64,000 nt of DNA, from assembly GCA_964518965.1 (NCBI GenBank), contig CAZFJP010000010.1, positions 30,787-94,786 of the forward strand, read 5' to 3'. Of this stretch, positions 4,395 to 52,367 are shown piece by piece (position 1 is the first letter of the stretch; each line of letters starts with the position of its first letter). This stretch comes from an uncultured Candidatus Saccharibacteria bacterium. GTDB lineage: Bacteria > Patescibacteriota > SOKK01. The notes under the pieces were generated by a model. The model ran no database searches. It saw only the letters and a program-made list of their open reading frames with translations, and was not told where the DNA came from. Made by a program: the position numbers and the translations under genes.

Positions 4395-5345
4395 TTATTT
4401 CCGCCGTTTTAACATCTCCTCTTGGGAGATGTATCTCCAGCCCCCCTTTTCGGGAGATCTGGAGGTGATGCGGGTTTTTTTCGGCGGAGCCGGTTCTTCC
4501 TCCACCGTGGTGGGAGTGGGGAGATAGACGTAGACGGGAGCGGGCGGTGACTGCTTCAGGAAGACAAAGTACTTGCCCTCCTTTGTCAGCCCCACTCCCG
4601 CGAGTTTGTCTCCTTTTCTGGGCTCGGCTACGGCGTAGAACCTGTCGAAGTTGGGAACCGTATAGACTTTATCTTCGGTCTCGATCCGACAAGTGTGGCC
4701 TTCGTAGGTCACCCTTGCGATCGTTCCCGTCAGGGCGACGGGAGAAGCGGCCGTTGCTGTTTCATCCGGCGCGAATGGCCCGGTCTCGTAGTAATAATTG
4801 ACTCCAAGCCAAGCACAAACGCCGGTCACGGCGAGGGCAATTACCGCGACTGCCCAGCCAGCGAGAGCCCACCGGAAGTTTCGTTTCCTTTTCCGGTTGG
4901 CTTCCCCGAGCTTTGCGCCGAGTTCTTTGGATTCGGCTTGCGCCTCATCCATTTTTTTCTCGGCAAAAGTAGCGGTCCCCTCGGCGGCTGCCTTTTGGGT
5001 GAGGAGGTCTTCCAACCGCTCGTTAAGAGCAGCGTTTTCCTCCCGAAGCTTGGCAAGAGTTTCCTTGTCAAGTTCTACTTCCTTGGAAACCCTTACCAAG
5101 TTGTTATTAGCGACTTCAAGGTCTTGCTCTAGCGCGGCGACTTTCTTGCCGGAGGTCTCGATCTCGGCGCGAGCCTCTCTGAGATGCACCGAGATGTCGT
5201 CGCGCTCGGCCTCGATGCGGCCGATTTTTTCGGTCGCGGCGACAAGTGCCGCTTTTTTTTCCTCCAGCTCTTGTTGGAGGCGGCGCAGTTCTTCTGCTGC
5301 CTTCTCAAGCTGCTGGAGGAGCAGCTCTTCCTTGTTATTTTCCAT
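4395..5345 (-). CDS. Hypothetical coiled-coil / single-TM protein encoded in a GC-rich island with foreign codon usage
   Basis: GC is about 60% against about 36% in the flanks, with GCC/GAG/CTC/CGC-rich codons. N-terminal 150 aa are predicted coiled coil, then a TM helix (WALAGWAVAVIALAVTGVCAWLGV), then a 140-aa C-terminal domain. ATG at 5345 is preceded by GGAGGT; the track's TTG start 12 nt upstream is less likely. Confidence 0.55.
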   Translation of the reverse strand: MENNKEELLLQQLEKAAEELRRLQQELEEKKAALVAATEKIGRIEAERDDISVHLREARAEIETSGKKVAALEQDLEVANNNLVRVSKEVELDKETLAKLREENAALNERLEDLLTQKAAAEGTATFAEKKMDEAQAESKELGAKLGEANRKRKRNFRWALAGWAVAVIALAVTGVCAWLGVNYYYETGPFAPDETATAASPVALTGTIARVTYEGHTCRIETEDKVYTVPNFDRFYAVAEPRKGDKLAGVGLTKEGKYFVFLKQSPPAPVYVYLPTPTTVEEEPAPPKKTRITSRSPEKGGWRYISQEEMLKRRK

Positions 5346-5447
5346 CTTGACCTCCAAAAATGAAAAATGAAAAAACTGTTAAAGTTCAGATTTCCTCTCT
5401 AATCTTTGGGTCTTTTTTATAAGATTTTCTTATCTAAAACGCCTTAT

Positions 5448-5512: not shown

Positions 5513-5520
5513 ATAACAGC

Positions 5521-5640
5521 TAAAGGCAGAAGTCAAAAGGCAAAAAGCAAAAGTAGAGGTAAAAAGGTAAAAGCTTAGGCAGTTTCTTTTTACCTTTACT
5601 TTCGCTTTTATCTTTTGCTTTTTGATTTTTGCCTTTCGTC
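5521..5640. repeat. Copy A of an A-tract/T-tract palindromic repeat family (direct core CAAAAG[G/A]CAAAAAGCAAAAGTA plus its inverted partner), 3' of tRNA-Met
   Basis: Left arm 5522-5574 is A-rich and right arm 5585-5637 is its approximate reverse complement, giving a long imperfect hairpin. The 22-nt core at 5535-5556 recurs at 5754-5775 and 19332-19353. Confidence 0.5.
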
Positions 5641-5657
5641 CCGCGTAGCGGGACGAG

Positions 5658-5733
5658 TGGTGGGCTCGGTAGGAATTGAACCTACGACCAATCCCTTATG
5701 AGGGGACTGCTCTAACCGCTGAGCTACGAGCCC
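5658..5733 (-). tRNA. tRNA-Met (anticodon CAU), CCA encoded
   Basis: Cloverleaf drawn by hand: GGGCTCGTAGCTCAGCGGTTAGAGCAGTCCCCTCATAAGGGATTGGTCGTAGGTTCAATTCCTACCGAGCCCACCA. G1-C72 suggests an elongator (or lysidine tRNA-Ile) rather than the initiator. Confidence 0.85.
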
Positions 5734-5740
5734 AATAATA

Positions 5741-5870
5741 AAAGGCAAAAGTCAAAAGACAAAAAGCAAAAGTAAAGGTAAAAGTTAAAAATGGACAGGG
5801 TGGAAGTATCTATTTTTAGCTTTTTAATTTAATTTACTTTTGCCTTTTATCCTTTACCCTTTACCTTTTT
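5741..5870. repeat. Copy B of the palindromic repeat family, 5' of tRNA-Met
   Basis: Arm 5741-5787 is about 90% identical to arm 5522-5570 of copy A. Inverted partner cttttgccttttatcctttaccctttacc lies at 5838-5868. Confidence 0.45.
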
Positions 5871-6566
5871 TTATTTCGCAGTTGCTAAATTGTAATCTCC
5901 GTTATAGTGTTTTACAATTCCAGCATGATTCAATGGCCATGCACGCAGCCAAACTTTTCCGATAATATTGCAGCGGGCTAGCTCACCCCATTCACGAGAA
6001 TCAGACGATGCGTTCGGTTGACGGTTATCGCCAATGACAAAATAGTCATCAGCGTCTAATTCTTCTATTACTTCTCCTAGTGTTTCCCAATCGGCGGGGA
6101 TATATGGTTCTTTTAATTGTACACCTTTGGGATTTTCTTTATTGTAGATAATTATACGACCGTCGGAAACTTCTACTTTTTCACCTGGTAATCCGATAAT
6201 TCTTTTAATATAATTTTTGGAAGGATCTTTGGGGTAATTAAAAACGATTACGTCACCACGTTTAGGGGAGGTAAAACGATAACTGATTTCGTCAACAATT
6301 AAATATTCGCCATCTTTAAAGTTTGGTTCCATACTTTGACCCATTACGTAAAACGGCTGGATTAAGAAATAACGAATTAGGAAAACAATTACCAAAACAC
6401 TGATAACCGTTTCGGCAACTTCCATTACAAAATTGCCAACTGATTTTAAGAAATCGCCAAAGCCACCTTCTTCTTTTTTATCTAAATTAACAGTTTTCTT
6501 TTCTTCATAGAAAAAGCTTGGTTTTTTCTTTTCCTTATTTTTTTCAGATAACTTATTGTTTTTCAT
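5871..6566 (-). CDS. lepB: Signal peptidase I
   Basis: N-terminal TM, Ser box GQSMEP, Lys box KRIIGLPGE, and GDNR...SSDSR box. Confidence 0.85.
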   Translation of the reverse strand: MKNNKLSEKNKEKKKPSFFYEEKKTVNLDKKEEGGFGDFLKSVGNFVMEVAETVISVLVIVFLIRYFLIQPFYVMGQSMEPNFKDGEYLIVDEISYRFTSPKRGDVIVFNYPKDPSKNYIKRIIGLPGEKVEVSDGRIIIYNKENPKGVQLKEPYIPADWETLGEVIEELDADDYFVIGDNRQPNASSDSREWGELARCNIIGKVWLRAWPLNHAGIVKHYNGDYNLATAK

Positions 6567-21485: not shown

Positions 21486-21641
21486 CTTGCAAAAAATTTT
21501 GTAGTTGCTATAATCAATTTGTTCCCGAAATAATTTCGGGGTAAACCTAAGACAGTAGGCAAAAACTAAGTCCTACCGAGGAAAATCATGAGAGGTTGCT
21601 CTCTGTCTTAGGTTAAAGGCAGAGTTTTTTAAAGATCTATT
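21486..21641 (+). promoter_or_regulatory. Promoter (TTGCAA-16-TGcTATAAT) plus structured L10 (rplJ) leader
   Basis: cccgaaataatttcgggg hairpin. Long-range pairing cctaagacag...ctgtcttagg encloses an inner stem (gtagg/cctac). This is typical of the L10(L12)4 autoregulatory leader. Confidence 0.5.
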
Positions 21642-35797: not shown

Positions 35798-38623
35798 TTA
35801 TTTTTTTTCTTCTTCTGGAACCTCCGGAATATTAGTGCTTTCCCCTGAAAGAATGTTATCAATATTTTTAGTATCTAAAACTTTGTAAGATTTTCCTTCT
35901 ACTTTGATACTGTCTTCACGAGGAGGAAAGGTTAAAGAAGTTTTTGGTCGTGGACGAGATGGTGAATAACGGTCGGGACGATGATGATAAAAGTTTTGAC
36001 TACTTCTGGAATGACTGCGACGTTTGTGGTTCTTTTCCCGGCGTGCCCGTTCTTCTTTGACACTTTCAATTGTGGCTTCACTCCAACGTCCGATTTTTTC
36101 TTCAATTACTTCTCTTCTGCGTCCATAACGTTCTCGAGATACTCGGACGGCTTTATCGTGATTATTAGTAATATCAGTATAAGGTTCAAGTGTAGTAGCA
36201 CTAAATGCTCTACTGGTTATGCCGTCAATAGCAAGTTTAACGTAAATGTCATATTTATCAAGATCAACCAAATCCATTGCAGTGATTGTTGGCATCGTTT
36301 CCTGTTCAATAAATTCAGCATCAACAGCACCTATTCTAAAAATAATCATCGTGCCAACATTGCCAAATACTGCATCACGTACTTCTTCCTCCATTTGAGT
36401 AATGTACTGATGGGCAATTGTTAAACTTAGACGATATTTGCGGGCTTCAGAAAGAATTGTAGCAAAAGACTCGGTTGCAAAGTTTTGAAATTCATCAACG
36501 AAAAGGTAGAAATCTTTACGTTTATGTTCTGGTATATAAGCGCGACGCATTGCTCCTAATTGCATTTTGGTGATTAACATTGCTCCGAGCAAAGCACTAT
36601 TATCTTCACCAATGCGACCCTTACTGAGATTAACCAAAAGAATTTTTCCTTGATCCATAATCTCTTCGATGTCAATAGTACTTTTGGTCTGACCCAGAAT
36701 ATTGCGCATTATTGGATTGCTAACGAATTGTCCAACTTTATTTTGAATTGGAGCAACAGCTTCGGCGCGCAAGCGATCATTATAATTAGCAAATTCATTT
36801 ATCCAAAAGGCTTTTACAACTGGATCTTTGATTGTTTTAATAACCTTCTTGCGGTATTCGCTGTCAGAAAGCATGCGCAGAATACCGAGAATTGTTGAGC
36901 TGGGATATTCAAGTAGGGCTAAGATTGTATAACGTAAAATGTATTCCAAACGCGGTCCCCAAGATTCGGCCCAAATCTTTTTAAAGATACCAATTAAACC
37001 AGAGGCAACCAATCCTCTAAATTCCGGGTCAACGTTTTCCAAGACATTGAAACCAATGGGAAAATCTTGGTCGGAGGGATTGAAGTAAACGACGTCATTA
37101 ATACGGTTATTGGGAATAAAGTCTAATACTCTCTCGGCAAGATCGCCGTGAGGGTCAACTAATGCTACTCCTTTATTGCGACGGATATCAGAAATGATCA
37201 TATTGCCTAACATTGCGGTTTTACCCATACCAGTTTTACCAATGACGTAGATATGACGGGTACGATCTTCGTCTTTAATACCAAAAGGAACTTTGTTCTC
37301 GCGGAAGTTGGTTTGAGCAAAAATCGTTAAGTCCTCAGTTGAACCCTCAATTGGCAGGTTAACTGGTGCAGCAGCACGTTTAGAAGTAATTTTGTGAATG
37401 GTAGGAACTTTGACGTGGATCTCTGGCAAGTGATAAATAGTTGCTAATTCTTCGGTATTTAAGACAATACCACGGTCCCAGTAGCTAAATTCTCGTTGTT
37501 GAAATTGCTTTAGAAATTTGCGCTTTTTCCAATTGGTCCAGAATTTTAGTTCAAACCAGCCTATTTTTCCTTTGGTAAACTCAGCAAATTTGAAAGCGTT
37601 TAAATTATTAGTTTTAAATTGTTGAAATGCACCAACAATTTGAGGGATTCTTGTTTTAAGTGAGAAAACGTCTTTATCAGCCATGTAAAGGATGCGGATT
37701 TTGCACTCATAGCCCGGTTTAGAAATTTTTTGGCCAACACGCATAACAATCTCACGTTCAGTATCAATAAGAAGTGGCAGACGTTCAAATTCATTCTTTT
37801 GAGTGGACGGAGTTTCCGATTCTACGCCCATGGTGCTCGAAACAGTTCTACTGATTGTTTCTTGAGTAAGCGCTAACGCGTTACTTAAAGCACCTGCTTT
37901 TACTTCTGGTTTCTCGCCTTTAATCTCATTAATAATATTCTCCCCCTCTTTGATCCAATAATCATCGACAGTCGGACGAGTAAGGATCTGGATCCAGTAC
38001 TGTTCTTTTTCGCCAATCCGATTCATGATGGAGGTTAATCCTTCCATTGCATCAATACGTGCTTCTTCAGTTTTCACCTGACGCTCGATTTCTGGATAGG
38101 AGCGAATTGGATAGGCGTTTTCTTTGAAGAAGCGGAACTCAAAACCGGCCATATCATGTTTGTTCCAGTCAAAAGTGTTAGTATAATCTTTCACTTCTTC
38201 AATTTCGGCATCGGGGTAAGCCGCGTGGATTTGGCTAATAATAATATCTTTGAAGTTATCTGGAACACCGACGAGATAATAAATTTGCCCGCCAATAGAG
38301 ACAATTTCCCAGCTAACATGTTCCAAAACCTGTCCCTTCCAATACAAATCAAATCCCTCAATAGGCTGCCACATTCCTTGGATATTGGCGAACATTTGTT
38401 CTGCAGTAAGAGGGGTTTTTTCATTCTCGCGCGGCACTTGAATTTTAAGTATGGTGTGCTTTTGTTTACTTATCCAGATGCGGCGACGAGTATCGAGATA
38501 TAGCGGGAAAAGGACGAAATAAACCAAGATACCAAAAAGTCCCCACCAACCATAGTGGAAGGTGAGGGTTGCAGTGGCGATAATTCCATTGAGGAAACTT
38601 TTGAGAATTTCGTTAATTTCCAT
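35798..38623 (-). CDS. Membrane-anchored FtsK/HerA-superfamily ATPase of the VirD4/TraG/TrwB (type IV coupling protein) type, with a roughly 430-aa N-terminal domain of unknown function
   Basis: Two N-terminal TMs. Walker A block HIYVIGKTGMGKTAMLGN...VALVDPHGDLAE resembles TrwB. Walker B YLFVDEFQNF. RKYRLSLTIAHQYITQM resembles the TraG/VirD4 C-terminal motif. Basic low-complexity tail. Confidence 0.6.
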   Translation of the reverse strand: MEINEILKSFLNGIIATATLTFHYGWWGLFGILVYFVLFPLYLDTRRRIWISKQKHTILKIQVPRENEKTPLTAEQMFANIQGMWQPIEGFDLYWKGQVLEHVSWEIVSIGGQIYYLVGVPDNFKDIIISQIHAAYPDAEIEEVKDYTNTFDWNKHDMAGFEFRFFKENAYPIRSYPEIERQVKTEEARIDAMEGLTSIMNRIGEKEQYWIQILTRPTVDDYWIKEGENIINEIKGEKPEVKAGALSNALALTQETISRTVSSTMGVESETPSTQKNEFERLPLLIDTEREIVMRVGQKISKPGYECKIRILYMADKDVFSLKTRIPQIVGAFQQFKTNNLNAFKFAEFTKGKIGWFELKFWTNWKKRKFLKQFQQREFSYWDRGIVLNTEELATIYHLPEIHVKVPTIHKITSKRAAAPVNLPIEGSTEDLTIFAQTNFRENKVPFGIKDEDRTRHIYVIGKTGMGKTAMLGNMIISDIRRNKGVALVDPHGDLAERVLDFIPNNRINDVVYFNPSDQDFPIGFNVLENVDPEFRGLVASGLIGIFKKIWAESWGPRLEYILRYTILALLEYPSSTILGILRMLSDSEYRKKVIKTIKDPVVKAFWINEFANYNDRLRAEAVAPIQNKVGQFVSNPIMRNILGQTKSTIDIEEIMDQGKILLVNLSKGRIGEDNSALLGAMLITKMQLGAMRRAYIPEHKRKDFYLFVDEFQNFATESFATILSEARKYRLSLTIAHQYITQMEEEVRDAVFGNVGTMIIFRIGAVDAEFIEQETMPTITAMDLVDLDKYDIYVKLAIDGITSRAFSATTLEPYTDITNNHDKAVRVSRERYGRRREVIEEKIGRWSEATIESVKEERARREKNHKRRSHSRSSQNFYHHRPDRYSPSRPRPKTSLTFPPREDSIKVEGKSYKVLDTKNIDNILSGESTNIPEVPEEEKK

Positions 38624-43214: not shown

Positions 43215-44735
43215 TTAATTTACTTTACTCTTTTTTACTCTTTCATAATAAATTAAACTTTCTTTACCAAACTGATAAGTATTTTTAATTTGATATTGGT
43301 TTAGTTTTGGCAGTTTTAGTCCATACTCATTGAAATCAGAAGTACGAATTTCCCAGAAGTTTTTGGTGTTTTTGAGATATTTACTGATGTCGGTAATAAG
43401 CTCATTGTTACTCAAAAGAGCGCTGCCGCCGTAGTGTGGTAGCTCTCCAGAGGGAGTGTATACTGCCGATTTTTGCTCATTTTTATTATAGTATTGAAAG
43501 ACAATGAAAGTAAAGGAAGCAGAGTGGATAATTTTCTCACCTGGGCGATAATACTGCTGAAGTGTTTGATTTAGTTCTCTCATACCAATTTGTTTTGGAT
43601 CCAGACCAAAAACATTAGTACAGGCAGTCGCGATAACTATTCCAGTGGTTACAAATAGTATCGGCATTAGGATTTTGTTTTTTAATTTAGCAACAAAGTA
43701 AGCAAAAAGAATAAATTCAAAGGTGCCAGCAAAGATGAAATAACGGTCTAAGAAAACCGAGCGAGAAATTGAAACTAGTGCCCCAAGAATAAAGGGAATA
43801 AAAAGACAGTTTAGGACTAGTATTAGAGCAATTTTTTGTTGTGGTTTTTGTGACTTTAAACTACGAGTTGCTAAGAAACTAACTAGAAGAATAAGAATAA
43901 AAGGTAAAACAAGAATAGCGAGGGTTTTAATTTCAATACTGCCAATAGTAATCACCAAAAAAGTGCGAAAAAAGCTAATGACCGACAGTGCTGGAATCCA
44001 GTAATCTTTTTTTACTTGCTGAAGTTGTTTTAAAAAAACCATCAGCCATGGTAAGTAGAAAACAATGGTGAGAAATAAACTGAGAAAGAAATAGCCAATT
44101 TTTTGAGACAGGAATTGTCGTGTTTTTTTGTCAACGATAAGAATGCCGAGAAGAATTCCGATAATTTGGGCAACTGTGGTAAAAGCTAAAAAGTAGTGAG
44201 TGTAGATACCAGTAACGGTAAAGATTAAGTAGCCCCCCAAATAAAAAAGCGTTTTGATTTTTTTCTTAGTCCAAAATGCTTGCCAGAGAAAGAAGGTAGA
44301 AGCGACTGCTAGGAATGCTCCTAACATATACATGCGACTCTCACGGCTGTATTGAATAAAGAATGGTGCAATTGTAATTAGAAAGCTTGCGATAAGAGCT
44401 ACTCTACTATTGAAAAGTTTTTTAACGAGTAGATAAACACTGATGATTAGTAAAATCCCAAAGATAACTGAGAAGCCGCGTAATGCCGTCTCGCTATCTC
44501 CTGCTATAAGAGTCCACCATCTTAGTAAAAAATAATAAAACGGTGGATGAACATCGAATTTTCCCAGTTCTATGATTTGAGTTAAGGAATGTTTTACCAT
44601 CTCGGCACTAAATGCTTCATCATACCAGAGGGCGTTTTTGGTGATCTGAAACAAACGTAAAAATCCTCCGAGGATAATAATAGCGGTGAGGATTAAGAAG
44701 TTAGAGCCTTTGAGTTTTGAGAGAGGCTTTATCAT
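43215..44735 (-). CDS. GT-C fold membrane glycosyltransferase (GT39/ArnT/PMT-like)
   Basis: At least 11 TMs with a first-loop motif ALWYDEAFSAEM (DE motif). Confidence 0.65.
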   Translation of the reverse strand: MIKPLSKLKGSNFLILTAIIILGGFLRLFQITKNALWYDEAFSAEMVKHSLTQIIELGKFDVHPPFYYFLLRWWTLIAGDSETALRGFSVIFGILLIISVYLLVKKLFNSRVALIASFLITIAPFFIQYSRESRMYMLGAFLAVASTFFLWQAFWTKKKIKTLFYLGGYLIFTVTGIYTHYFLAFTTVAQIIGILLGILIVDKKTRQFLSQKIGYFFLSLFLTIVFYLPWLMVFLKQLQQVKKDYWIPALSVISFFRTFLVITIGSIEIKTLAILVLPFILILLVSFLATRSLKSQKPQQKIALILVLNCLFIPFILGALVSISRSVFLDRYFIFAGTFEFILFAYFVAKLKNKILMPILFVTTGIVIATACTNVFGLDPKQIGMRELNQTLQQYYRPGEKIIHSASFTFIVFQYYNKNEQKSAVYTPSGELPHYGGSALLSNNELITDISKYLKNTKNFWEIRTSDFNEYGLKLPKLNQYQIKNTYQFGKESLIYYERVKKSKVN

Positions 44736-45481
44736 TTCTTATATTTTCCGGTAATCACATTCCATTTTACCTTTATTACATCTCCTATTGCTTTCAAATA
44801 CACTTTAGTAAAGGAAAGTTTTGTTTTGGAAATATCAGTCCAGGTGATTCCTACTTCTTTAATTCTAAACCCTAATTGTTTTCCGATTGCCAACGTTTCC
44901 ATATCAAACACCCATCCTTTTATTTTCTGCTTTGGAAAAATTGATTTAGCAGCTTCCTTTGTAAAACATTTAAAACCGCACTGGGTATCCTTGATACCCC
45001 AGAGAACAAGAGATTGGATTAAGATGTTTCCCATTTTACCGAGAATACGACGAATCCAGGGTTGCGGTACTCTAATAATACTTTCCGGCATAGCGCGGGA
45101 GCCGATGACAATATGATAACCTTGCCTGAAATAGGGCAATAATTTGGCAATTTCATCAATTCTAGTTGCATTATCAGCATCCATGAAAAGCACATACTTC
45201 CCTCTCGCTTCCATTGCGCCATGAGCAACACTATAGCCTTTTCCTTGGTTAGATTCATTTTCTACCAGCCGTAGGTTTTCCATCACCTGCTTTTTTTGTT
45301 TTACAATTTCTCTTGTACTATCGGTACTTCCATCATCAACGATGATAATTTCCGAGGTAAAAGGTTGTTTTAAGAGAAACTGATAAACATCAACAAGAGT
45401 ATCGCCTAAAACATTTTCCTCATTGTAAGCAGGGATAATCACTGATAAGTCAATTTGTTTATCGGGATTTGAGTTGATCAT
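44732..45481 (-). CDS. GT2 polyprenyl-phosphate glycosyltransferase (ArnC/DPM1-like)
   Basis: LSVIIPAYNEE...IIIVDDGSTDST...YVLFMDADN. C-terminal amphipathic/TM segment. Confidence 0.8.
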   Translation of the reverse strand: MINSNPDKQIDLSVIIPAYNEENVLGDTLVDVYQFLLKQPFTSEIIIVDDGSTDSTREIVKQKKQVMENLRLVENESNQGKGYSVAHGAMEARGKYVLFMDADNATRIDEIAKLLPYFRQGYHIVIGSRAMPESIIRVPQPWIRRILGKMGNILIQSLVLWGIKDTQCGFKCFTKEAAKSIFPKQKIKGWVFDMETLAIGKQLGFRIKEVGITWTDISKTKLSFTKVYLKAIGDVIKVKWNVITGKYKK

Positions 45482-47072
45482 GCGAAATAAAATAAACTTT
45501 AAAAATCTTTTGGTTGAAACGATTTTGTCCCTGATCGATTAAAAAATATCGTTTCAGCAACCTTGATTCATTTGCTACTTTGAAGAAATCTCTTGTGAAC
45601 AGTAAGTAAAATGTTGTTTTTTGTGATTTAAGTAATTCATCTAATGCTTTACTATCGCGGTCAAATAATGTATAGCTAGATTTCTGATAAGTAATAAACT
45701 CTAAACTTTGATTAGAATAATGGTCAAGAGCAACTTTGAGTGGTCGGGAAAACTGCTTGCGGTTAAGGTATTCTCCGACATCTCGCAAGTCGCCACGAAA
45801 CTCTGAGTAAACCTGTTCTTTTTCGGCATAAGTGATGAAATAGTGCTTATAGCTATCGTAACTAATAGAACTGGCAAAACCAATTCCAAGGATGATAATA
45901 ATTGCTTTCAGAACCATTTTTCTACTTTGTATTGCATGAAAGAAATATTTAAAGGGTAGCGCAACTAAAAGATAGATAAAAGGTATTGTTCCGATAGCAC
46001 GCAAGGCATGTGGTACTCCTTCGGCAGTAAGCATTGCTGGAATCATCATGACAAAGAAGCCGACAAGGATTAAAAAGTATTTAGTTTTTTTGAAATTAAT
46101 AATCGTGATTAGAAGTCCCCATAGCATTAGTAGGCCCACCCAAAAATTCAGCATCGGTGCTCCACTTAAATTATGGCGCCAGTTATTGTCACCAGCAAAA
46201 TTAAACATTCCAAGGGTCTTTACAACACTACTTAAAGTAGTTTTGATAAATCCTCCCTGCCAGAGTGCGGGATTAAAAATAGAAACGCTACTGGCCCGAC
46301 CAAAGAAATCAAACGGGTGAAAAATAGAGTAGATCAGGAAAGGAGTAGCAGTTAGAAGCATAGCAATAAGGAAGATAGCAACCCCCCTTTTTACGAATTT
46401 TATCTTGAAAACAGCACTTTTTTGAATAAAATATTTATACGCCAGTACTAGGAGAATGATTAGTGGGACGAAACGAAAAGCGATATAAGTATAAGCGCCT
46501 AATCCAAGAGCAATACCTGAAAAGATCCAGAAAACAGTTTTCCCTGTTAGAGATGTCTGCCTTGCCGGTAGACAGGAGTCTACTTTTGATGTAGTACTTT
46601 GCCATGCTTTGATGAGAAAGTAAAGAAAAATGCAGATTAAGAATGGTACTAGAATAGCGCGAAATCCGTTGCGGGAGAAAGTAAGATGCCAAGTAGAGAT
46701 AGTAAAGAAAAATAGTCCCACTATTCCGAGTTTGCGTCCGAGTAATTCCTTAGCGAGAAAATAAAAAAAGATTAATGTCAATACTCCGATTAAAGCCGAT
46801 ACTAGTCGGATGGAAAAAATCGAGCTGCCAAGTAATTTAAATGACAGTGAAATTAAATAAATAAACAGTCCTTCTCTGCCACCATTGTTTTCAAAGAAAA
46901 CTTTTACGGCAGGATTTGCAATGATTTGGTTAGCATCATTGCCGTTCGCGGCTTCATCGGGATAAACCCCGAAGGGTAGCTGATTTAAATTAGTAAGTCT
47001 TAAAAAGGCCCCCAAGGTGATAATCAGAGTAACGACAATTACCTCAATAGCTAGTTTCAAACGTTTGTTCAT
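45459..47072 (-). CDS. GT-C fold membrane glycosyltransferase (GT39/ArnT/PMT-like), second copy
   Basis: FGVYPDEAANGNDANQI first-loop motif and at least 11 TMs. Confidence 0.65.
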   Translation of the reverse strand: MNKRLKLAIEVIVVTLIITLGAFLRLTNLNQLPFGVYPDEAANGNDANQIIANPAVKVFFENNGGREGLFIYLISLSFKLLGSSIFSIRLVSALIGVLTLIFFYFLAKELLGRKLGIVGLFFFTISTWHLTFSRNGFRAILVPFLICIFLYFLIKAWQSTTSKVDSCLPARQTSLTGKTVFWIFSGIALGLGAYTYIAFRFVPLIILLVLAYKYFIQKSAVFKIKFVKRGVAIFLIAMLLTATPFLIYSIFHPFDFFGRASSVSIFNPALWQGGFIKTTLSSVVKTLGMFNFAGDNNWRHNLSGAPMLNFWVGLLMLWGLLITIINFKKTKYFLILVGFFVMMIPAMLTAEGVPHALRAIGTIPFIYLLVALPFKYFFHAIQSRKMVLKAIIIILGIGFASSISYDSYKHYFITYAEKEQVYSEFRGDLRDVGEYLNRKQFSRPLKVALDHYSNQSLEFITYQKSSYTLFDRDSKALDELLKSQKTTFYLLFTRDFFKVANESRLLKRYFLIDQGQNRFNQKIFKVYFISHDQLKSR

Positions 47073-48670
47073 TGATTAACTTTAAAGATTCTAATCGTCG
47101 GGTTCTCAAAAACTTTGGTAAGTCCCAAAAGTGATTCTGGCGGATTAAATTTTTCGTCTGGGCCACTATAGATTAAATCAATCTTGTTTTTTGAAAGAAA
47201 ATCTAACATCTTCTTGCGGTCCATTTGTCCATCCATAAATTGATTGACCTTATCTATTTTACCATCAAAAAAGCTGATTGTCTCAGTCCAGTGGCCCAAA
47301 TAGACTTTCATTCCAGTCATCCAGACCAAGTAGCCGCCGCGAAAATCCTTAGACAAAACCAAAGGGTGTTTTCTGCCATAATTTTGTTTCAGCCAGTCAA
47401 AAGCTTGTTTCTCATAGCGATCAAGATAAATTTCTCTACTTTGAGTAGTTATTGCTCTTGCATAATCTTTCTCAATTGGAATAATCGATAAAGAACTTAA
47501 AACAATCACAAGCGCAACAATGATAATTTTCCAACGACGCTTTTTTATTTTGGAAATAATCCAGATTAACCCAAAACCCCCAAGAATTGTAATAGGAATT
47601 TCTGCGCCTTCAATTAATTTACGCTGAAAACCAAGGGGCAAAAGAATTGCGAAAAAGTTGACTATTGCCCAAAGGGATAAAATTTGATATTTAGTTTCTG
47701 TTTTGATTCTAAACTTTTGAATGATACCGATGACTGCTAAGAATCCACTGATTCCAAATCCGAGAAAGTAAATTGGTAGTGGCCCAACTGGACAATTGTT
47801 TGCTTCAGTCCATTGCTTAAAAACCTGCTGATATTTAAAAACATAGAAGTTATAGAGAAAAAGTGGTAGAGGAATAATTCCCATAGTACCAATTTTTAAA
47901 ATTTCTCCAAAAGGAATCTTTTTTAATTTAATCGTAAGGAGGAACAAGAAAATCACCAGCGTAATTCCAATTACAATGACATTGTAAGGATGCATCAGAA
48001 TTACTCCGAGGATACTTAATCCTCCCAGAATTGACCACTTAAGCCACTTTTTAACATTTAGTGCTTTGATAGTGCAGTAAAAAGCAAGAATCATCAATGC
48101 GACTGCACCGGTAAAATGCGGGAAGAGAATCAAGCTTAAGAAGTTATTCCCCTCTCCCAAATAAACGTCGGGAAGATTGAAACTGAGGCGCAGCAGTCGT
48201 GGGATCCAGCCAAATCCCAAAGGTAGTAGACTGAGAGTAATAACAAAGAAGCGCCAGCGAGAGCTGGGGAAAAATAATCCACTCAAAAGGTAAATGGCAA
48301 AAAAGAGGATAATGGCGCAAAATATTCGGGCAGTATGAAAAATTGCTACACCTGTTAGATTGAAAATACGCGCAAGATGACCGAGGAAGACATAAAAATT
48401 GTTGATAAAAGCACCTTGGTGTTCTTCCGAAGTAAAGCGATCCTCGTAAAGCCACTTCCCTTCTTTTCCCTGCTCTATTTTAGCAAAGTAAGAATTAGCA
48501 TCTGGAAATCCTCCATTTATGCCGATAAAAGTGTAGTTTTCAGAGGTTTTGAGATAAGCAAAGAGATGAGGGATATTAGTGAGGGTCAAAAAAATGCCTA
48601 GAAGAAGAGCTAGGAGAAGGATTTTGGAAAATAGCTTATGGAGTACTTGGTTTATTCTTGACATTATCAT
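47069..48670 (-). CDS. Large polytopic membrane protein, probable GT-C-type glycosyltransferase or accessory
   Basis: 533 aa with 12 or more TMs. Its position overlapping the GT39/GT2 genes suggests it is co-transcribed with them. Confidence 0.4.
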   Translation of the reverse strand: MIMSRINQVLHKLFSKILLLALLLGIFLTLTNIPHLFAYLKTSENYTFIGINGGFPDANSYFAKIEQGKEGKWLYEDRFTSEEHQGAFINNFYVFLGHLARIFNLTGVAIFHTARIFCAIILFFAIYLLSGLFFPSSRWRFFVITLSLLPLGFGWIPRLLRLSFNLPDVYLGEGNNFLSLILFPHFTGAVALMILAFYCTIKALNVKKWLKWSILGGLSILGVILMHPYNVIVIGITLVIFLFLLTIKLKKIPFGEILKIGTMGIIPLPLFLYNFYVFKYQQVFKQWTEANNCPVGPLPIYFLGFGISGFLAVIGIIQKFRIKTETKYQILSLWAIVNFFAILLPLGFQRKLIEGAEIPITILGGFGLIWIISKIKKRRWKIIIVALVIVLSSLSIIPIEKDYARAITTQSREIYLDRYEKQAFDWLKQNYGRKHPLVLSKDFRGGYLVWMTGMKVYLGHWTETISFFDGKIDKVNQFMDGQMDRKKMLDFLSKNKIDLIYSGPDEKFNPPESLLGLTKVFENPTIRIFKVNQ

Positions 48671-48741
48671 CCCTGAAATATGCTACACTCACAAAGTTGC
48701 TCTTTAAAAAAATAAAATACCGCTAAACCAGAGGAGGCAGT

Positions 48742-49035
48742 ATGGCAACTCTAGAGTTTTGGCAGCTTTTTATCCGGCTAGCCTTCAATATCGCGAGGGA
48801 TTCGGATCCCCAGCGACGGCGGGAGTTGGCCTCGACTACTTTGGAGGGCTGCCAGCCCTTCTTAGCCGAGGTTCTCTGGAAGGAGAAACTGCCGCCGGGA
48901 ATTACGAGAAGGCAGATCGTGAGGGCTTACAATCTCCTCGCGGTCACCGCCGGCGATAACAGTCGCCTACTTCCCCCCTGTTCAATACGGCGGCTCTGCC
49001 CTGTACTGTCTAGTACAGGGCTTTTTATTGACTAA
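48742..49035 (+). CDS. Hypothetical small protein in GC-rich island 2 (GC about 58%)
   Basis: ATG is preceded by AGAGGAGG. The open frame runs through the terminator hairpin, so the exact C-terminus is uncertain. Confidence 0.4.
   Translation: MATLEFWQLFIRLAFNIARDSDPQRRRELASTTLEGCQPFLAEVLWKEKLPPGITRRQIVRAYNLLAVTAGDNSRLLPPCSIRRLCPVLSSTGLFID
48999..49029 (+). terminator. Strong Rho-independent terminator (9-bp stem ccctgtact/agtacaggg, loop gtct, T5)
   Basis: ccctgtactgtctagtacagggctttttatt. Confidence 0.65.
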
Positions 49036-49118
49036 ACCAGTTTTTTCTGCTAAGATGGTTTTTCTGAGGGGAGTGTTCTTTTAAAAACCTAAAAACCCAA
49101 AACAAAGAGGAGGTAATA

Positions 49119-49538
49119 GTGATGTGTGGCTGGAAGCTTGCATATGATATTCGTTTCTTTAAGGACATCTATCAAGCGGTTGAAGCGGTTTGTAACTATC
49201 TATCCCAATGGGAGTTTTGCTGGGACTGTGTCAGCCACTTCTGGCGGTATAGATTGGACCCAGCTGCTGGACCGTTTGTTCTCCTGGGGATAGTTGTCAC
49301 TTTCATTGTTGTTATTTTTGTTTGTCTCCGCCTGGAGTTGGAACAGCGAGAAAAGAAAAAGCCAAAAGTTTCCAAGTCTGCTGCAAAGTCTCGCTATCGT
49401 CCTAAACACCTCAAAAAAAAGAAACGTGGCAAGCATCTCTCTGGGAGTCTCCTAATAGAGCCTAAGAAAATTTCCGAGGAGGAGCTTGATATTGGAGATA
49501 TCAGTGAGCGCATCCGTAAACTTTGTCATCGCCCCTGA
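49119..49538 (+). CDS. Hypothetical small membrane protein with Cys/Trp-rich N-terminus and Lys-rich tail (GC about 48%)
   Basis: AGAGGAGG RBS. CGW...C..YLSQWEFCWDC..HFW N-terminal 45 aa, then TM PFVLLGIVVTFIVVIFVCL, then KKKPKVSKSAAKSRYRPKHLKKKKRGK. Confidence 0.4.
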   Translation: MMCGWKLAYDIRFFKDIYQAVEAVCNYLSQWEFCWDCVSHFWRYRLDPAAGPFVLLGIVVTFIVVIFVCLRLELEQREKKKPKVSKSAAKSRYRPKHLKKKKRGKHLSGSLLIEPKKISEEELDIGDISERIRKLCHRP

Positions 49539-49817
49539 CGATCAACTCAATTTAGCTTGATCAAAAGGGGCTTTTTTATTTCAAAGTACTTTTTTGTTAA
49601 GACATAATTTATTCCAGACATTCCTTAAAAATTTGTAGAGCAACCACCCTAACTAACTGAGATGGACCTGTTTCTGGTACTGGTAAACTAGCAAAACAGC
49701 AAGAAGGTTAAACGTTGTTTTTCGAGTTACGAATAACTGTTTCTGAGCTAAAGAAACACAATCATTCCATCCAAGCGGTCTCAAAGAGACAGTTTTTTTG
49801 CCTTCTTTATGACAAGA

Positions 49818-52367
49818 TTATTCTTTTAAATTAATATGCGATCCGTTTTCATCTTTTGTCACCTCAATATGTGTGGGAAACTCTTCTTTTACTTCTTGTA
49901 AATGGGAAATTACTAAGATTTTGTCAAAATCATTACGGATAGAATTAATTGCAGCGATTAAGTTTTCTCTACCTGATTTGTCTTGGGAACCAAAACCCTC
50001 ATCAATAACTAAAAATTGTAATTTTGCGTTTGCACGCTTGGATAATAATTTTGATAGTGCGATTCTAATTGCAAAATTGATACGGAATGCTTCCCCACCA
50101 CTGAATAACTCATATGGCCGCGATCCAAGTTTGTCAGTGATTTTAATCTCCAATGATTCTTTAATCCCACCTGTTTTCTTTTCTTTCTGTGTCTCTAATT
50201 CCACTTGCATTTCTCCGCCAGTCATGCGATCTAAAATTAAATTTGCCTCGTTTTCAATCTCGGGCAGAGTATTTTCAATAATCATTGCTTGGATTCCATT
50301 CTTGCCAAAAGCATGCTCTAGAACGGTGAGATTTTTGGTATTTTCTTCAATTTGTTTAACTGTTTTGAGATATTTTTGAATATATTGCCGTGCTTCATTG
50401 CACTGACTTAATTTTGCTTCAATGAAGGAAAGGTTTTGTTGTTCGGTCTGAATAAGTCGCTCAAACTTGATATTCTCCTGTTTAAGATCATCTACTAAGC
50501 TACTAATTTGACTTAAATCTTTAAGGTTAGTAGTTGCTTTTTTCTGCGCGGCTAATAAATCAGCTTCTTCTTTTTGCTGTTCCTTAATTCTTTTTTCAAG
50601 ATTTTCTCGTTCTTCTGTTTCGCGATCAAAGTTCTCTTGAGCATTATCTAGACGATGTTTTTGTTCTCCAAGTGGTTTTAGTTTTTCCAGTTCTGTCTGA
50701 ATTATTTTATGTCGTTCTGGATCATAATTTAATTTTTGGATTTCTTCTTCAGTCTTACTTAAAATTTCTTGATCCAGTGGTGAAAAAGTCTTTTGGCCAA
50801 TTTTCTCTATAATTGTTTGCAGCTTATGTTTTAAATCTTTGAGAGTAGTTTCCTTTTCTTTAATTTGTCTCAACCGTGATTCCAGTTCACCTAATTTTTG
50901 TTCAATCACAACTTCAGCTAAAAGGAAACGGTCTAGCTCGTTAATTCTAATCTCAAGAGTAGCAATTTTTTCTTTCTTGGTTTTAATTACCTTTTGATTA
51001 GCAAGCCATTTACTTCTTTCTTCTTCCAGTTCAGCCTCAATTTTTCTACTAATTTTCTTGCGATGTTGATCGGTTAATTTTTGCTGGCACAAGGGGCAAC
51101 TTGCTTCTGCCGCTCTGATTAAAGATAACTTTTCTTTATTTTCCTCACCACGTTGTCTCAAATGCTCGTTCCTTGTTTTGAGAGTAACGATTTGTTCCTT
51201 CAGTTCATAGACCTGTTTTTCTAGTTGTAATTTCTCTTCTTTTTGCTTGACGATTTTTTTTAACTCCAATTTCGTTTTTTCTCGTTTAGCTTCCAGTTGT
51301 GATCTTTCTCCTTGTTCTTTCTCGATTTGGTTAATTTGGGTTTCTAGTTGTGCCTGCTCTACATCCAGTCGGCGTTTCTCGGTATTGAGACGTTCTTCAA
51401 TCTCACTACGTTTATTTTCTAATTGTCTCTGCTTTTCCAGTTTTTGAGTAAGTAACTGGTTTTCTTTTTCAACTTTTTTCCATTGTTTAAAGTTCGCTTC
51501 AATCGTCTCTTTTTCTTTAATGATAGTTTGATAGCGCGAGAGATTCTCCTGAATTTTTACTAAGCGGTTCTGGTTTTGATTGATTTCTTCTTTGAGTTTT
51601 TCTAGACGATTTCTTTTCTCTTTTAGCAATTCAAAATCAGCTAAAAGCTTGGATTGTTTTTGTTGAAATTTTTCCAAGTCAGAAGTAATTCGTTCCTTAT
51701 CTGATTTTAGTTTCGCTACTTTGTTTTTTAGCTCCGCTTCCTGTTTTTTGAGATTTTCCTCAGCGTCTAGTTCTCTTTCTTTCTCTTTGAGAATAGTTTT
51801 AAGTGATTCAATTTCAATTTTATTTTGGCGTAACTTGGCTCGAATCTTTTCTACTAACCTATCATAGTAGTCTAATCCTAAAATTTCACCCAAAATCTTT
51901 TTACGTTCCACCGGACTTTTAATAGTAAACTCATCCGCTCGGTCCTGTCTTAAAAATGCCGAGTTAATGAAAACGGAATACGGCATTTTTAAAATATCAC
52001 TTGTAAGTTTGTTTTGAGTTTCTTTGGAACTATTCTCGGTGATGTCATAAAACTCTCCTTTTTCAAAATGTTCCAGGTGAAGAACGGTTTTTTTAAAATC
52101 TTTTTTGCGGAAGACCCGGTAGTTTTCATCATTAACTGAAAACTCTAATTCTACTTCCATTTCTTTTGCACCAGAGTGAATCAAATCTGCTTCATCCTTC
52201 GCACGTGCCTCTCCCCACAAAGCCCAGGTAATTGCTTCAAGTAGTGATGACTTCCCTGCTCCATTGGGTCCGGTTAAGGAGGCAATTTGAAATTTATTAA
52301 AGTCTAGCGACTCTTCCTGTTCGCCGTAAGGCATGAAATTCTTGATTTTAAGTGTTTTGGGTAGCAT
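49818..52367 (-). CDS. sbcC: Exonuclease SbcC (Rad50-like ATPase)
   Basis: Walker A GPNGAGKSS, long coiled coil with zinc hook CPLCQQ, C-terminal signature/Walker B (LLVIDEGFGSQD). Confidence 0.85.
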   Translation of the reverse strand: MLPKTLKIKNFMPYGEQEESLDFNKFQIASLTGPNGAGKSSLLEAITWALWGEARAKDEADLIHSGAKEMEVELEFSVNDENYRVFRKKDFKKTVLHLEHFEKGEFYDITENSSKETQNKLTSDILKMPYSVFINSAFLRQDRADEFTIKSPVERKKILGEILGLDYYDRLVEKIRAKLRQNKIEIESLKTILKEKERELDAEENLKKQEAELKNKVAKLKSDKERITSDLEKFQQKQSKLLADFELLKEKRNRLEKLKEEINQNQNRLVKIQENLSRYQTIIKEKETIEANFKQWKKVEKENQLLTQKLEKQRQLENKRSEIEERLNTEKRRLDVEQAQLETQINQIEKEQGERSQLEAKREKTKLELKKIVKQKEEKLQLEKQVYELKEQIVTLKTRNEHLRQRGEENKEKLSLIRAAEASCPLCQQKLTDQHRKKISRKIEAELEEERSKWLANQKVIKTKKEKIATLEIRINELDRFLLAEVVIEQKLGELESRLRQIKEKETTLKDLKHKLQTIIEKIGQKTFSPLDQEILSKTEEEIQKLNYDPERHKIIQTELEKLKPLGEQKHRLDNAQENFDRETEERENLEKRIKEQQKEEADLLAAQKKATTNLKDLSQISSLVDDLKQENIKFERLIQTEQQNLSFIEAKLSQCNEARQYIQKYLKTVKQIEENTKNLTVLEHAFGKNGIQAMIIENTLPEIENEANLILDRMTGGEMQVELETQKEKKTGGIKESLEIKITDKLGSRPYELFSGGEAFRINFAIRIALSKLLSKRANAKLQFLVIDEGFGSQDKSGRENLIAAINSIRNDFDKILVISHLQEVKEEFPTHIEVTKDENGSHINLKE

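What the first reader, a model, noticed from the sequence alone, without database searches (positions are those of the whole stretch)
48680..49560. Second GC-shifted mini-island with two small genes wedged between the glycosylation cluster and sbcCD
Seen in sequence. Between the start of the 533-aa membrane gene (48670) and sbcC, an 880-nt stretch rises to about 58% and then about 48% GC. It carries two plus-strand genes, both with strong AGAGGAGG ribosome-binding sites. The first is a 97-aa basic protein (48742-49035) that ends in a strong 9-bp-stem terminator at 48999-49029. The second is a 139-aa protein (49119-49538) with a Cys/Trp-rich 45-aa N-terminus (CGW..C..W.FCWDC..HFW), one TM and a Lys-rich tail. 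Both are encoded opposite to all flanking genes. Neither has a recognisable family. Inference: horizontally acquired cargo. A small two-gene module of this shape (soluble basic protein plus membrane protein) is reminiscent of toxin/immunity or abortive-infection pairs, but that is speculation.
Basis: seen in the sequence. Interest (0 to 1): 0.5.

Follow-up and report, generated by a model that had tools for sequence, protein, structure and literature searches.

The report
Two orphan genes in variable slot
Two small genes with no known relatives, each apparently its own transcription unit, sit in a gene-swapping slot between DNA-repair and glycosylation genes of a Patescibacteria genome; they look real and the first looks foreign, but this is ordinary accessory cargo and nothing shows it is a toxin/immunity pair.

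Summary
ORF1 (48742-49035) and ORF2 (49122-49538) lie on the plus strand between two minus-strand core genes. Each has AGAGGAGG, a promoter-like site and its own hairpin/U-run terminator. GC rises to 60% over ORF1 and about 47% over ORF2, against a 38% background.

ORF1 is a real coding gene. A roughly 85%-identical strain (L001) keeps it at the same position, with dN/dS 0.20, two in-frame indels and differences concentrated at third codon positions. Its GC3 (0.62-0.71) is twice the host's. Neither protein matches Pfam, NCBIfam, PHROGs, PADLOC, PDB, phage or plasmid records, or billions of metagenomic proteins.

In five related Patescibacteria lineages, sbcD-sbcC-[slot]-membrane gene-PMT-GT2 is collinear. 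DNA homology stops at the sbcC stop and at or just inside the 5' end of the membrane gene. Each lineage's slot holds different, unrelated small genes on the same strand. The closest genome has only a 323-nt spacer.

So this is a gene-turnover hotspot holding two autonomous, moron-like cassettes. Foreign origin is supported for ORF1 and weaker for ORF2. Assembly chimerism is excluded by seven identical assemblies. The toxin/immunity or abortive-infection reading has no support. Function is unknown. Interest is low to moderate.

The parts
48671..49817 (.). Variable slot: the interval between the ORF start of the conserved membrane gene (48670; public gene calls start it at 48664) and the stop codon of sbcC.
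   Evidence: blastn of five relatives' loci against the window. On the sbcC side every alignment ends at 49817/49818. On the membrane-gene side the main alignments end at 48626 to 48583, inside the gene's 5' end, and one short weak L009 match (21 nt, E 0.054) reaches 48666. No relative has a significant match inside the interval; only 11-34-nt matches with E from 0.005 to 0.8 fall there.
48658..48689 (+). Promoter-like site for ORF1: TTGACA (48658-48663), a 20-nt spacer, then TGcTACACT (extended -10, 48681-48689). It overlaps the start of the divergent membrane gene.
   Evidence: Read from the sequence. L001 has TTGACA-17 nt-TGcTAAACT at the same place. The same TTGACA...aTATGcTAnnnT motif precedes slot genes in L009, L010, L013 and L014, and is duplicated with the tandem paralogs in L013/L014. 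The consensus scanner did not call it in the window because of the 20-nt spacer, so it is inferred.
48730..48737 (+). Ribosome-binding site AGAGGAGG of ORF1.
   Evidence: one of only two plus-strand copies in the 64-kb window.
48742..49035 (+). ORF1, 97 aa. The conserved core is codons 1-79 (48742-48978): a basic (pI 9.8) three-helix bundle. The tail (codons 80-97) is not conserved in frame.
   Evidence: ORF. Comparison with the L001 homolog gives dN/dS 0.20, codon-position differences of 7/6/17, two in-frame 3-nt indels and a 4-nt indel after codon 79. AF2 pLDDT is 79.6 with helices at 4-18, 23-46 and 56-70. GC3 is 0.62-0.68.
48998..49026 (+). Intrinsic terminator of ORF1: a 10-bp stem, a 4-nt loop and a T-run, lying inside the 3' end of the ORF.
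   Evidence: dG -17.9, z -3.9. It is identical in L001.
49028..49056 (+). Promoter-like site for ORF2: TTGACT, 17 nt, then TAAGAT with an upstream TG. It starts directly after the ORF1 terminator.
   Evidence: It is conserved in L001 up to the end of that contig.
49106..49113 (+). Ribosome-binding site AGAGGAGG of ORF2.
49122..49538 (+). ORF2, 138 aa. It has an acidic Cys/Trp-rich N-terminal domain of about 49 aa (includes CWDC), one transmembrane helix (about 52-73) and a polybasic tail (22 K/R in 65 aa). Predicted topology is N-out/C-in.
   Evidence: ORF. An ORF of this length arises in 1 of 2000 shuffles. Composition of the segments. AF2 places a helix at 52-79, but the model is of low confidence (pLDDT 58.8). 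The topology is inferred from the positive-inside rule.
49531..49580 (+). Intrinsic terminator of ORF2: a bipartite hairpin at 49531-49571 followed by UUUUUUAUU. It overlaps the stop codon.
   Evidence: dG -19.1 kcal/mol, z -4.45.
49580..49797 (+). Remaining non-coding stretch of the slot: a promoter-like site (TTCAAA-17 nt-CATAAT, 49580-49608) and a weak terminator (49778-49797), with no ORF or ribosome-binding site between them. It may be a decayed third cassette.
   Evidence: sites; the stretch is unstructured (z +0.29); no Rfam hit.

Best explanation
The 1.15-kb interval between sbcC and the first gene of the glycosylation cluster is a gene-turnover hotspot. Its flanks are conserved core genes, and each Patescibacteria lineage has different contents.

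In this strain the hotspot holds two autonomous, monocistronic cassettes transcribed against the flanking operons. Each has a sigma-70-like promoter, AGAGGAGG, an ORF and an intrinsic terminator. The layout resembles phage 'morons'.

Cassette 1 encodes a small, basic, cytoplasmic three-helix-bundle protein with a 79-aa functional core. It came from a much GC-richer, unsampled donor. It was already present in the common ancestor of the two sampled strains and has since been kept under purifying selection.

Cassette 2 encodes a single-pass membrane protein. Its short Cys/Trp-rich domain faces outward and its long polybasic tail faces the cytoplasm.

What is shown: the cassette anatomy, that ORF1 is coding and under selection, its foreign composition, the variability of the slot, and the absence of any known family.

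What is inferred:
- The contents were swapped in by homologous recombination in the conserved flanks, with no integrase or transposase involved.
- The two proteins act independently as strain-specific accessory factors. ORF2 most plausibly acts at the cell envelope, for example in exclusion or surface interaction. They do not form a toxin/antidote pair.
For: Anatomy:
- Searches show the two ribosome-binding sites, the two terminators, and a promoter-like site directly after the first terminator.

ORF1 is coding:
- L001 keeps ORF1 at the same position.
- Differences by codon position are 7/6/17 (binomial P = 0.007).
- dN = 0.078, dS = 0.39, omega = 0.20. Omega is at least 1 in four of the other five frames; the exception is the antisense frame whose third positions coincide with those of ORF1 (0.42). 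There are two in-frame indels.
- dS equals that of the adjacent membrane gene (0.405). This indicates co-divergence with the flank.

Foreign composition:
- ORF1 GC3 is 0.62-0.71 against 0.29-0.36 in host genes.

Hotspot:
- Five related lineages (L009, L010, L011/L012, L013, L014) keep sbcD-sbcC-[slot]-membrane gene-PMT_2-GT2.
- They carry unrelated small genes in the slot, all on the same strand.
- In four of them (L009, L010, L011, L013), homology ends at the sbcC stop (49817/49818) and just inside the 5' end of the membrane gene (48626 to 48583). L014 was not compared at DNA level.
- L009 is collinear with the window over 18 kb with only two breaks.

No mobile-element signature:
- There are no flanking direct or inverted repeats.
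- The flanking genes are housekeeping genes.

Orphan status:
- Searches found no family or relative.

Not an artefact:
- Seven assemblies are 100% identical to the window over their overlap with 46117-50754.

Concept:
- Hotspots without mobile elements, diversifying by recombination in flanking core genes, are described in PMC5635113.
- The moron definition (own promoter, own terminator, deviant GC) is given in PMC3594210.
Against: - There is no expression data. The promoters are consensus matches only, and the ORF1 promoter has a 20-nt spacer in this strain.
- ORF2 has no comparator at all, so its coding status rests on ORF length, the ribosome-binding site, GC by codon position and a plausible membrane architecture.
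- All slot genes in all lineages share orientation, promoter motif and a small-membrane-protein flavour. This could instead reflect one ancestral gene set diverged beyond recognition.
- In this strain the ORF1 stop codon lies 12 nt beyond the terminator stem. Either termination is leaky, which would make ORF1-ORF2 partly co-transcribed, or many ORF1 messages lack a stop codon.
- The donor, the recombination route and the function are inferred, not shown.
Confidence: 0.6

Rival explanations
1. The slot genes are fast-evolving positional orthologs. One ancestral set of small envelope genes was inherited vertically and diverged beyond sequence recognition. There was no horizontal acquisition.
For: - All slot genes in all lineages are on the same strand. 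They share a TTGACA...TGnTAnnnT promoter motif, an AGGAGG ribosome-binding site and terminators.
- Every lineage has at least one single-pass membrane protein with a basic juxtamembrane segment.
- Slot genes in L011, L013 and L014 also have moderately raised GC3.
Against: - L009 has a membrane protein 72% identical to the window's, and an sbcC 3' end 82% identical in DNA. Yet it has no trace of ORF1 or ORF2 in its 323-nt spacer.
- ORF1 evolves slowly (dN 0.078, below the 0.176 of the flanking gene's N-terminus), so an ortholog would still be easy to detect at that distance.
- A GC3 of 0.68 cannot be explained by divergence within a 38% GC genome.
- A profile of the L013/L014 family does not score ORF2 above shuffled controls (rank 758 of 2003).
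Confidence: 0.15
2. One reading: a two-gene toxin/immunity or abortive-infection module, with a soluble basic protein paired with a membrane protein.
For: - There are two adjacent small genes of unknown family in a variable region.
- Small membrane proteins can be toxic effectors. This is general knowledge.
- The ORF1 stop codon lies beyond its terminator, which would fit some read-through into ORF2.
Against: - No PADLOC, Pfam, NCBIfam or PHROG match exists for either protein.
- A strong terminator followed by a promoter-like site lies between the genes, and each has its own terminator.
- The two genes differ in composition (GC3 0.62-0.68 against 0.45), which suggests separate histories.
- Slot cargo in relatives shows no recurrent pairing, and L009 and L010 have a single gene.
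- No homologs occur anywhere else, whereas such modules usually spread widely.
Confidence: 0.07
3. The GC-rich 300 nt is a structured non-coding RNA ending in a terminator, and ORF1 is a by-product of high GC.
For: - GC-rich islands in AT-rich genomes are often RNA genes.
- The fold z-score is -3.9 with the terminator included and -2.3 without it.
- The terminator lies before the stop codon.
- A 97-codon ORF arises in 2.6% of shuffles.
- A 46-nt stretch is invariant between the two strains and contains an 11-bp hairpin.
Against: - There is no Rfam match, even at E up to 10.
- The reverse strand folds equally well (z -4.3).
- None of the 64 predicted pairs shows a compensatory change.
- Substitutions concentrate at third codon positions. 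Omega is 0.20-0.24 in the ORF1 frame, at least 1 in four of the other five frames and 0.42 in the antisense frame that shares its third positions. Both internal indels are multiples of three.
- The ribosome-binding site and ATG are conserved in L001.
Confidence: 0.05
4. Assembly chimera or contamination: foreign reads were joined into the contig.
For: Only the composition jump.
Against: - Seven contigs from ENA, JGI and Logan assemblies of different samples are 100% identical to the window over the part of 46117-50754 each covers, and several span both borders.
- A diverged strain (L001) has the same junction with the membrane gene.
Confidence: 0.01

Closest known systems
Horizontal-transfer hotspots without mobile elements (Oliveira et al. 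2017, PMC5635113)
   Same: The interval is bounded by the same core genes in all relatives, and its contents differ by replacement (turnover) rather than nested loss. There is no integrase, transposase or repeat signature. The cargo is strain-specific genes of unknown function.
   Different: That concept was defined statistically within species that have many genomes. Here it rests on six lineages, mostly metagenome-assembled and at genus-like distances. Recombination in the flanks was not tested.
Phage 'morons' (Cumby et al. 2012, PMC3594210), for example the HK97 gene 15 element
   Same: Each is a single small gene with its own promoter and its own intrinsic terminator, and a GC content that differs from its neighbours. 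It is inserted between conserved genes and transcribed independently. Cargo is often a small membrane protein.
   Different: The flanks are chromosomal housekeeping genes (sbcCD, glycosyltransferases), not a prophage. Neither protein has a relative in phage collections.
Type II toxin-antitoxin and abortive-infection gene pairs
   Same: Two adjacent small genes on one strand in a variable region. One is basic and soluble, the other is membrane-bound.
   Different: The genes are not an operon: a terminator and a promoter-like site lie between them. They match no toxin, antitoxin or defence family, have no homologs elsewhere, and differ from each other in composition.
Integron gene-cassette arrays
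   Same: A tandem series of small, unrelated, same-strand ORFs at one site, differing between relatives.
   Different: Each unit carries its own promoter-like site. The inter-gene hairpins are plain GC stems followed by T-runs, which is terminator anatomy. No integrase lies next to the slot. No attC model was run.

Membership tests
HGT hotspot (sensu Oliveira et al. 2017) | The interval is flanked by the same pair of core genes across genomes. | tested here: met
   sbcC and the membrane gene flank the slot in L009, L010, L011/L012, L013 and L014. The window is collinear with L009 over 18 kb.
HGT hotspot (sensu Oliveira et al. 2017) | Gene content differs by turnover between genomes. | tested here: met
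   Slot proteins of the different lineages show no significant similarity to ORF1, ORF2 or one another. The exception is the L013/L014 paralogs. There is no significant DNA homology inside the slot.
HGT hotspot (sensu Oliveira et al. 2017) | A statistical excess of transferred genes relative to other intervals within a species pangenome, and raised recombination in the flanking core genes. | not testable with these tools
   Only one full genome context per lineage is available, plus a 545-bp fragment of the sister strain.
Phage moron | Own promoter and own terminator around a single gene. | tested here: met
   The terminators are strong for both genes. The ORF2 promoter-like site was called by the scanner. 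The ORF1 promoter was inferred from an extended -10 and from the L001 version. All of this is at consensus level, with no transcript data.
Phage moron | [quoted passage not shown] | tested here: met
   ORF1 is 55% GC with GC3 0.62-0.68. ORF2 is 45% GC with GC3 0.45. Neighbouring genes are 35-37% GC with GC3 0.29-0.36.
Phage moron | Located within a phage or prophage genome. | tested here: not met
   The flanks are sbcCD, a UvrD-type helicase, glycosyltransferases, ybaB and recR, and are collinear in relatives. There are no PHROG, phage-record or viral-contig matches.
Type II toxin-antitoxin pair | The two genes are co-transcribed as one operon. | tested here: not met
   A 10-bp GC-rich stem with a T-run ends ORF1, and a TTGACT-17 nt-TAAGAT site follows it directly. 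This is a sequence-level test only.
Type II toxin-antitoxin pair | A recognisable toxin or antitoxin domain. | tested here: not met
Anti-phage defence / abortive-infection system | A match to a known or candidate defence protein family. | tested here: not met
   PADLOC gives no family for ORF1 or ORF2. Among the relatives' slot proteins it gives only one marginal match (Csa3, E 0.028).
Known structured RNA (Rfam) | A covariance-model match at or near the gathering score. | tested here: not met
   There is no hit in 48500-49850, even at E up to 10, apart from three chance-level matches of 11-14 bits.
Zinc-binding anti-sigma factor (considered for the ORF2 N-terminus, which contains CWDC) | An HxxxCxxC motif in a cytoplasmic N-terminal domain, paired with a sigma-factor gene. 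| tested here: not met
   No His lies four residues before the CxxC (sequence). There is no Pfam zf-HC2 or sigma hit. The polybasic C-tail predicts that the N-terminus faces outward.

The most novel reading that the evidence does not exclude
The slot may be a conserved 'expression site' rather than a passive hotspot. A promoter region shared with the divergently transcribed glycosylation operon would drive lineage-specific small envelope proteins. Patescibacteria would swap these proteins to vary their surface, for host attachment, glycosylation substrates or partners, or phage exclusion. ORF2 would be this strain's version and ORF1 a co-opted foreign regulator.
Probability: 0.12. Interest if true: 0.5.

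Novelty: new member of a known kind. Interest (0 to 1): 0.25.

Why it matters
Mostly as a clean, small example. It shows that ultra-small Patescibacteria genomes have fixed sites where small accessory genes are exchanged without recognisable mobile elements. It also shows that a GC-rich orphan in such a genome can be shown to be a selected protein-coding gene, not an RNA or an artefact. The two proteins add two orphan families: a 79-aa three-helix bundle and a Cys/Trp-rich single-pass membrane protein. If the recurrent placement of variable small membrane proteins next to the glycosylation operon proves functional, it could point to strain-specific surface factors in these episymbiotic bacteria. 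Nothing here establishes that.

Tried and rejected
- **Rfam.** Gathering and E up to 10 thresholds, plus ARAGORN, found no RNA gene in the slot.
- **RNA structure of ORF1.** The z-score is modest, the reverse strand folds equally well, and there are no compensatory pairs. Rejected as the main explanation.
- **Profile libraries.** Pfam, NCBIfam, PHROGs and PADLOC gave nothing for ORF1 or ORF2. For the relatives' slot proteins, Pfam and PADLOC gave only sub-threshold matches with E from 0.024 to 0.087.
- **PDB by sequence.** Only chance-level hits.
- **Word-indexed search of 5.8 billion proteins.** ORF2 matched only itself. ORF1 matched itself plus one 83%-identical fragment.
- **Full HMMER search of 1.84 billion representatives with the ORF1 profile.** Only the same cluster was found.
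- **Contig and record scans.** Viral and metagenome contig scans, and tblastn against phage and plasmid records, found no relatives of either protein.
- **Remote homology between ORF2 and the L013/L014 slot family.** The weak blastp hint (E 0.014 in a tiny database) did not survive a profile test against segment-shuffled controls.
- **9-bp direct repeat CTAAACCAG flanking ORF1 (48724 and 49033).** The upstream copy is absent in L001, and the repeat search shows no insertion signature.
- **Paralogs in the window.** None.
- **Possible small RNA in 49610-49800.** Unstructured (z +0.29).
- **Phage origin of the first GC-rich island.** No viral match.
Full report
**1. The observation**

The window is about 38% GC. 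Between 48700 and 49400 the 200-nt GC profile climbs to 0.605, falls to 0.38, then rises again to 0.46-0.475. ORF1 (48742-49035, 55.4% GC) lies in the top 1% of same-length windows. ORF2 (45.1% GC) lies in the top 4%.

Both ORFs are on the plus strand, between minus-strand genes. The octamer AGAGGAGG occurs on the plus strand only twice in 64 kb, at 48730 and 49106, immediately upstream of the two ORFs.

- ORF1 ends in a 10-bp GC-rich hairpin plus T-run (48998-49026).
- A TTGACT-17 nt-TAAGAT site with an upstream TG starts directly after the first terminator.
- ORF2 most likely starts at ATG 49122 (138 aa), as in public gene calls.

**2. Is it an artefact?**

No. Seven contigs from independent ENA, JGI and Logan assemblies are 100% identical to the window over the part of 46117-50754 that each covers. 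Several of them cross both borders of the island.

**3. Are the ORFs genes?**

ORF length alone is weak evidence for ORF1, because a 97-codon ORF appears in 2.6% of shuffles of that GC-rich stretch. It is stronger for ORF2, at 1 in 2000 shuffles.

The decisive evidence for ORF1 is comparative. A 545-bp contig from another sample (L001) is about 85% identical and has the same layout: the start of the membrane gene, then ORF1, the terminator and the next promoter. Over the 77 alignable codons of the core:

- Differences fall 7/6/17 by codon position (binomial P = 0.007).
- dN = 0.078, dS = 0.39, omega = 0.20.
- Omega is at least 1 in four of the other five frames; the exception is the antisense frame that shares ORF1's third positions (0.42). 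Both internal indels are 3 nt long.

A 4-nt indel after codon 79 changes the frame of the tail. The functional protein is therefore the 79-aa core. Single-sequence AlphaFold2 folds that core as a three-helix bundle (pLDDT 79.6).

The RNA-gene alternative has no support. There is no Rfam hit, even at E up to 10. The antisense strand folds equally well. None of the 64 predicted pairs shows a compensatory change.

ORF2 has no comparator. Its coding status rests on four things:
- its length;
- the optimally spaced ribosome-binding site;
- a coding-like GC pattern by codon position (0.53/0.37/0.45);
- a coherent architecture, with an acidic Cys/Trp-rich N-domain of about 49 aa, one hydrophobic helix, and a tail with 22 K/R in 65 residues.

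**4. What are the proteins?**

They are orphans.

- Pfam, NCBIfam, PHROGs and PADLOC give nothing.
- PDB by sequence gives nothing.
- The 5.8-billion-protein word search returns only self, plus the L001 fragment for ORF1.
- A full HMMER scan of 1.84 billion representatives with an ORF1 profile returns only its own cluster.
- Viral and metagenome contig scans, and phage and plasmid records, give nothing.

**5. Context in relatives**

The 533-aa membrane protein has homologs at 72%, 56%, 54% and 52% identity in the protein search, and another at 57% in a genome scan. Their contigs keep the order sbcD-sbcC-[slot]-membrane gene-PMT_2-GT2-...-ybaB-recR. The closest relative (L009) is collinear with the window over 18 kb at 74-82% nucleotide identity, with only two breaks, one of which is the slot.

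In the four relatives compared at DNA level (L009, L010, L011, L013), homology stops at the sbcC stop codon (49817/49818). On the other side it stops at 48626 to 48583, just inside the 5' end of the membrane gene. Inside the slot there are only short, non-significant matches.

The slot contents differ in every lineage:

| Lineage | Slot contents |
|---|---|
| L009 | 323-nt spacer with an uncalled 46-aa transmembrane ORF |
| L010 | one 142-aa gene |
| L011/L012 | genes of 163 aa and 77 aa |
| L013 | genes of 144 aa and 95 aa |
| L014 | genes of 144 aa and 175 aa |

The L013 and L014 genes are tandem paralogs with a duplicated promoter and 5' region.

All slot genes lie on the same strand as ORF1 and ORF2. 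All have AGGAGG-type ribosome-binding sites and hairpin/T-run terminators, and most have a TTGACA...TGnTAnnnT promoter-like motif. None is detectably related to ORF1 or ORF2, and none reaches the cut-off of any Pfam or PADLOC family. No direct or inverted repeats bound the slot.

**6. Origin**

ORF1 has a GC3 of 0.62-0.68 in the window and 0.71 in L001, against 0.29-0.36 in the neighbouring host genes. This argues for a GC-richer donor.

Its dS against L001 (0.39) matches that of the adjacent membrane gene (0.405). So it was already in place when the two strains diverged, and it has been inherited vertically under purifying selection since.

ORF1 evolves more slowly than the flanking gene's N-terminus. 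An ortholog would therefore still be obvious in L009, yet none is there. This is true presence/absence, not a failure to detect homology.

ORF2's shift is modest (GC3 0.45) and similar to slot genes of other lineages (0.43-0.54). Its foreign origin is plausible but not shown.

**7. Best explanation and rivals**

The best reading is a mobile-element-free gene-turnover hotspot, as described by Oliveira et al. 2017 (PMC5635113). It holds two autonomous cassettes whose anatomy matches the definition of phage 'morons': own promoter, own terminator and deviant GC (PMC3594210). They are not morons in the strict sense, because the surroundings are core chromosomal genes.

Replacement by homologous recombination in the conserved flanks is inferred by analogy and was not tested.

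The toxin/immunity or abortive-infection reading is not supported, for three reasons:
- A terminator and a promoter-like site separate the two genes.
- They match no defence or toxin-antitoxin family.
- The two genes differ in composition, and relatives show no recurrent pairing.

The strongest rival is 'one ancestral gene set diverged beyond recognition'. It is favoured by the uniform orientation and promoter motif. It is contradicted by L009 and by ORF1's composition and slow rate.

**8. Verdict**

- The kind of thing is known (hotspot cargo, moron-like orphan cassettes), so this is a new member of a known kind.
- Function remains inferred. ORF1 is a small basic cytoplasmic helical protein. 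ORF2 is an N-out/C-in envelope protein.
- Interest is low to moderate (0.25).
- The most novel reading not excluded is that the slot is a conserved expression site for swappable small surface proteins tied to the adjacent glycosylation operon (probability about 0.12).

Noticed in passing
window 4395-5357 (minus strand) and 5520-5880: This is the 'first' GC island. It encodes a 320-aa coiled-coil protein with a transmembrane segment and is 56% GC. Its GC3 (0.645) is almost the same as ORF1's. It lies beside tRNA-Met (5658-5733). That tRNA is itself bracketed by A/G-rich 43-50-nt direct and inverted repeats (5522-5564, 5587-5636, 5741-5790). No viral relative was found. It may share a donor with ORF1.
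   Followed up: partly
window 48979-49035, compared with L001 455-499: A 4-nt indel shifts the ORF1 tail. In L001 the stop codon (TAG) sits in the loop of the terminator hairpin. In the window strain the ORF reads through the hairpin, and its TAA lies 12 nt past the stem. Terminated transcripts may therefore lack a stop codon, or termination may be leaky into ORF2.
   Followed up: partly
window 48912-48957: A 46-nt stretch inside ORF1 is identical between the two strains, synonymous sites included. It contains an 11-bp hairpin (48915-48945). With only two sequences this may well be chance.
   Followed up: no
window 49580-49797: Directly after the ORF2 terminator there is another promoter-like site (TTCAAA-17 nt-CATAAT), followed about 170 nt later by a weak plus-strand terminator just before the sbcC stop. 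There is no ORF or ribosome-binding site between them, and the stretch is not structured (z +0.29). It may be a decayed third cassette.
   Followed up: partly
L013 3849-4726 and L014 3129-4242: In these relatives the slot holds tandem paralogs. They are single-pass membrane proteins that start MEWFWNI... and contain a shared YEPFASWANYE motif. The promoter and 5' leader were duplicated along with the gene.
   Followed up: partly
window about 44719-44739, compared with L009 13926-14882: This is the only other break in 18 kb of collinearity with the closest genome. L009 has an extra 318-aa gene between GT2 and the downstream PMT_2 gene, and the window lacks it. Other relatives carry small opposite-strand ORFs at that junction.
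   Followed up: no
window 48658-48700 and the equivalent region in L001, L009, L010, L013 and L014: The motif aTATGCTAnnnT next to the membrane gene start is conserved across lineages. Its reverse complement (TAGCATAT) lies only about 10 nt upstream of the membrane gene's ATG. This suggests a shared bidirectional promoter and possibly a near-leaderless membrane-gene mRNA.
   Followed up: no
window 35798-38623 (minus strand): A 941-aa ORF carries P-loop NTPase-like motifs (GKTGMGKT near residue 460). A gene at the edge of the L013 contig carries DUF8128 and TrwB_AAD_bind hits, which suggest a type IV coupling protein. That gene resembles the window ORF only in size, and the two were not compared.
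   Followed up: no
window 21528-21640: Rfam finds a ribosomal protein L10 leader (48.9 bits, just above the gathering score). There are also five tRNA genes elsewhere in the window.
   Followed up: no
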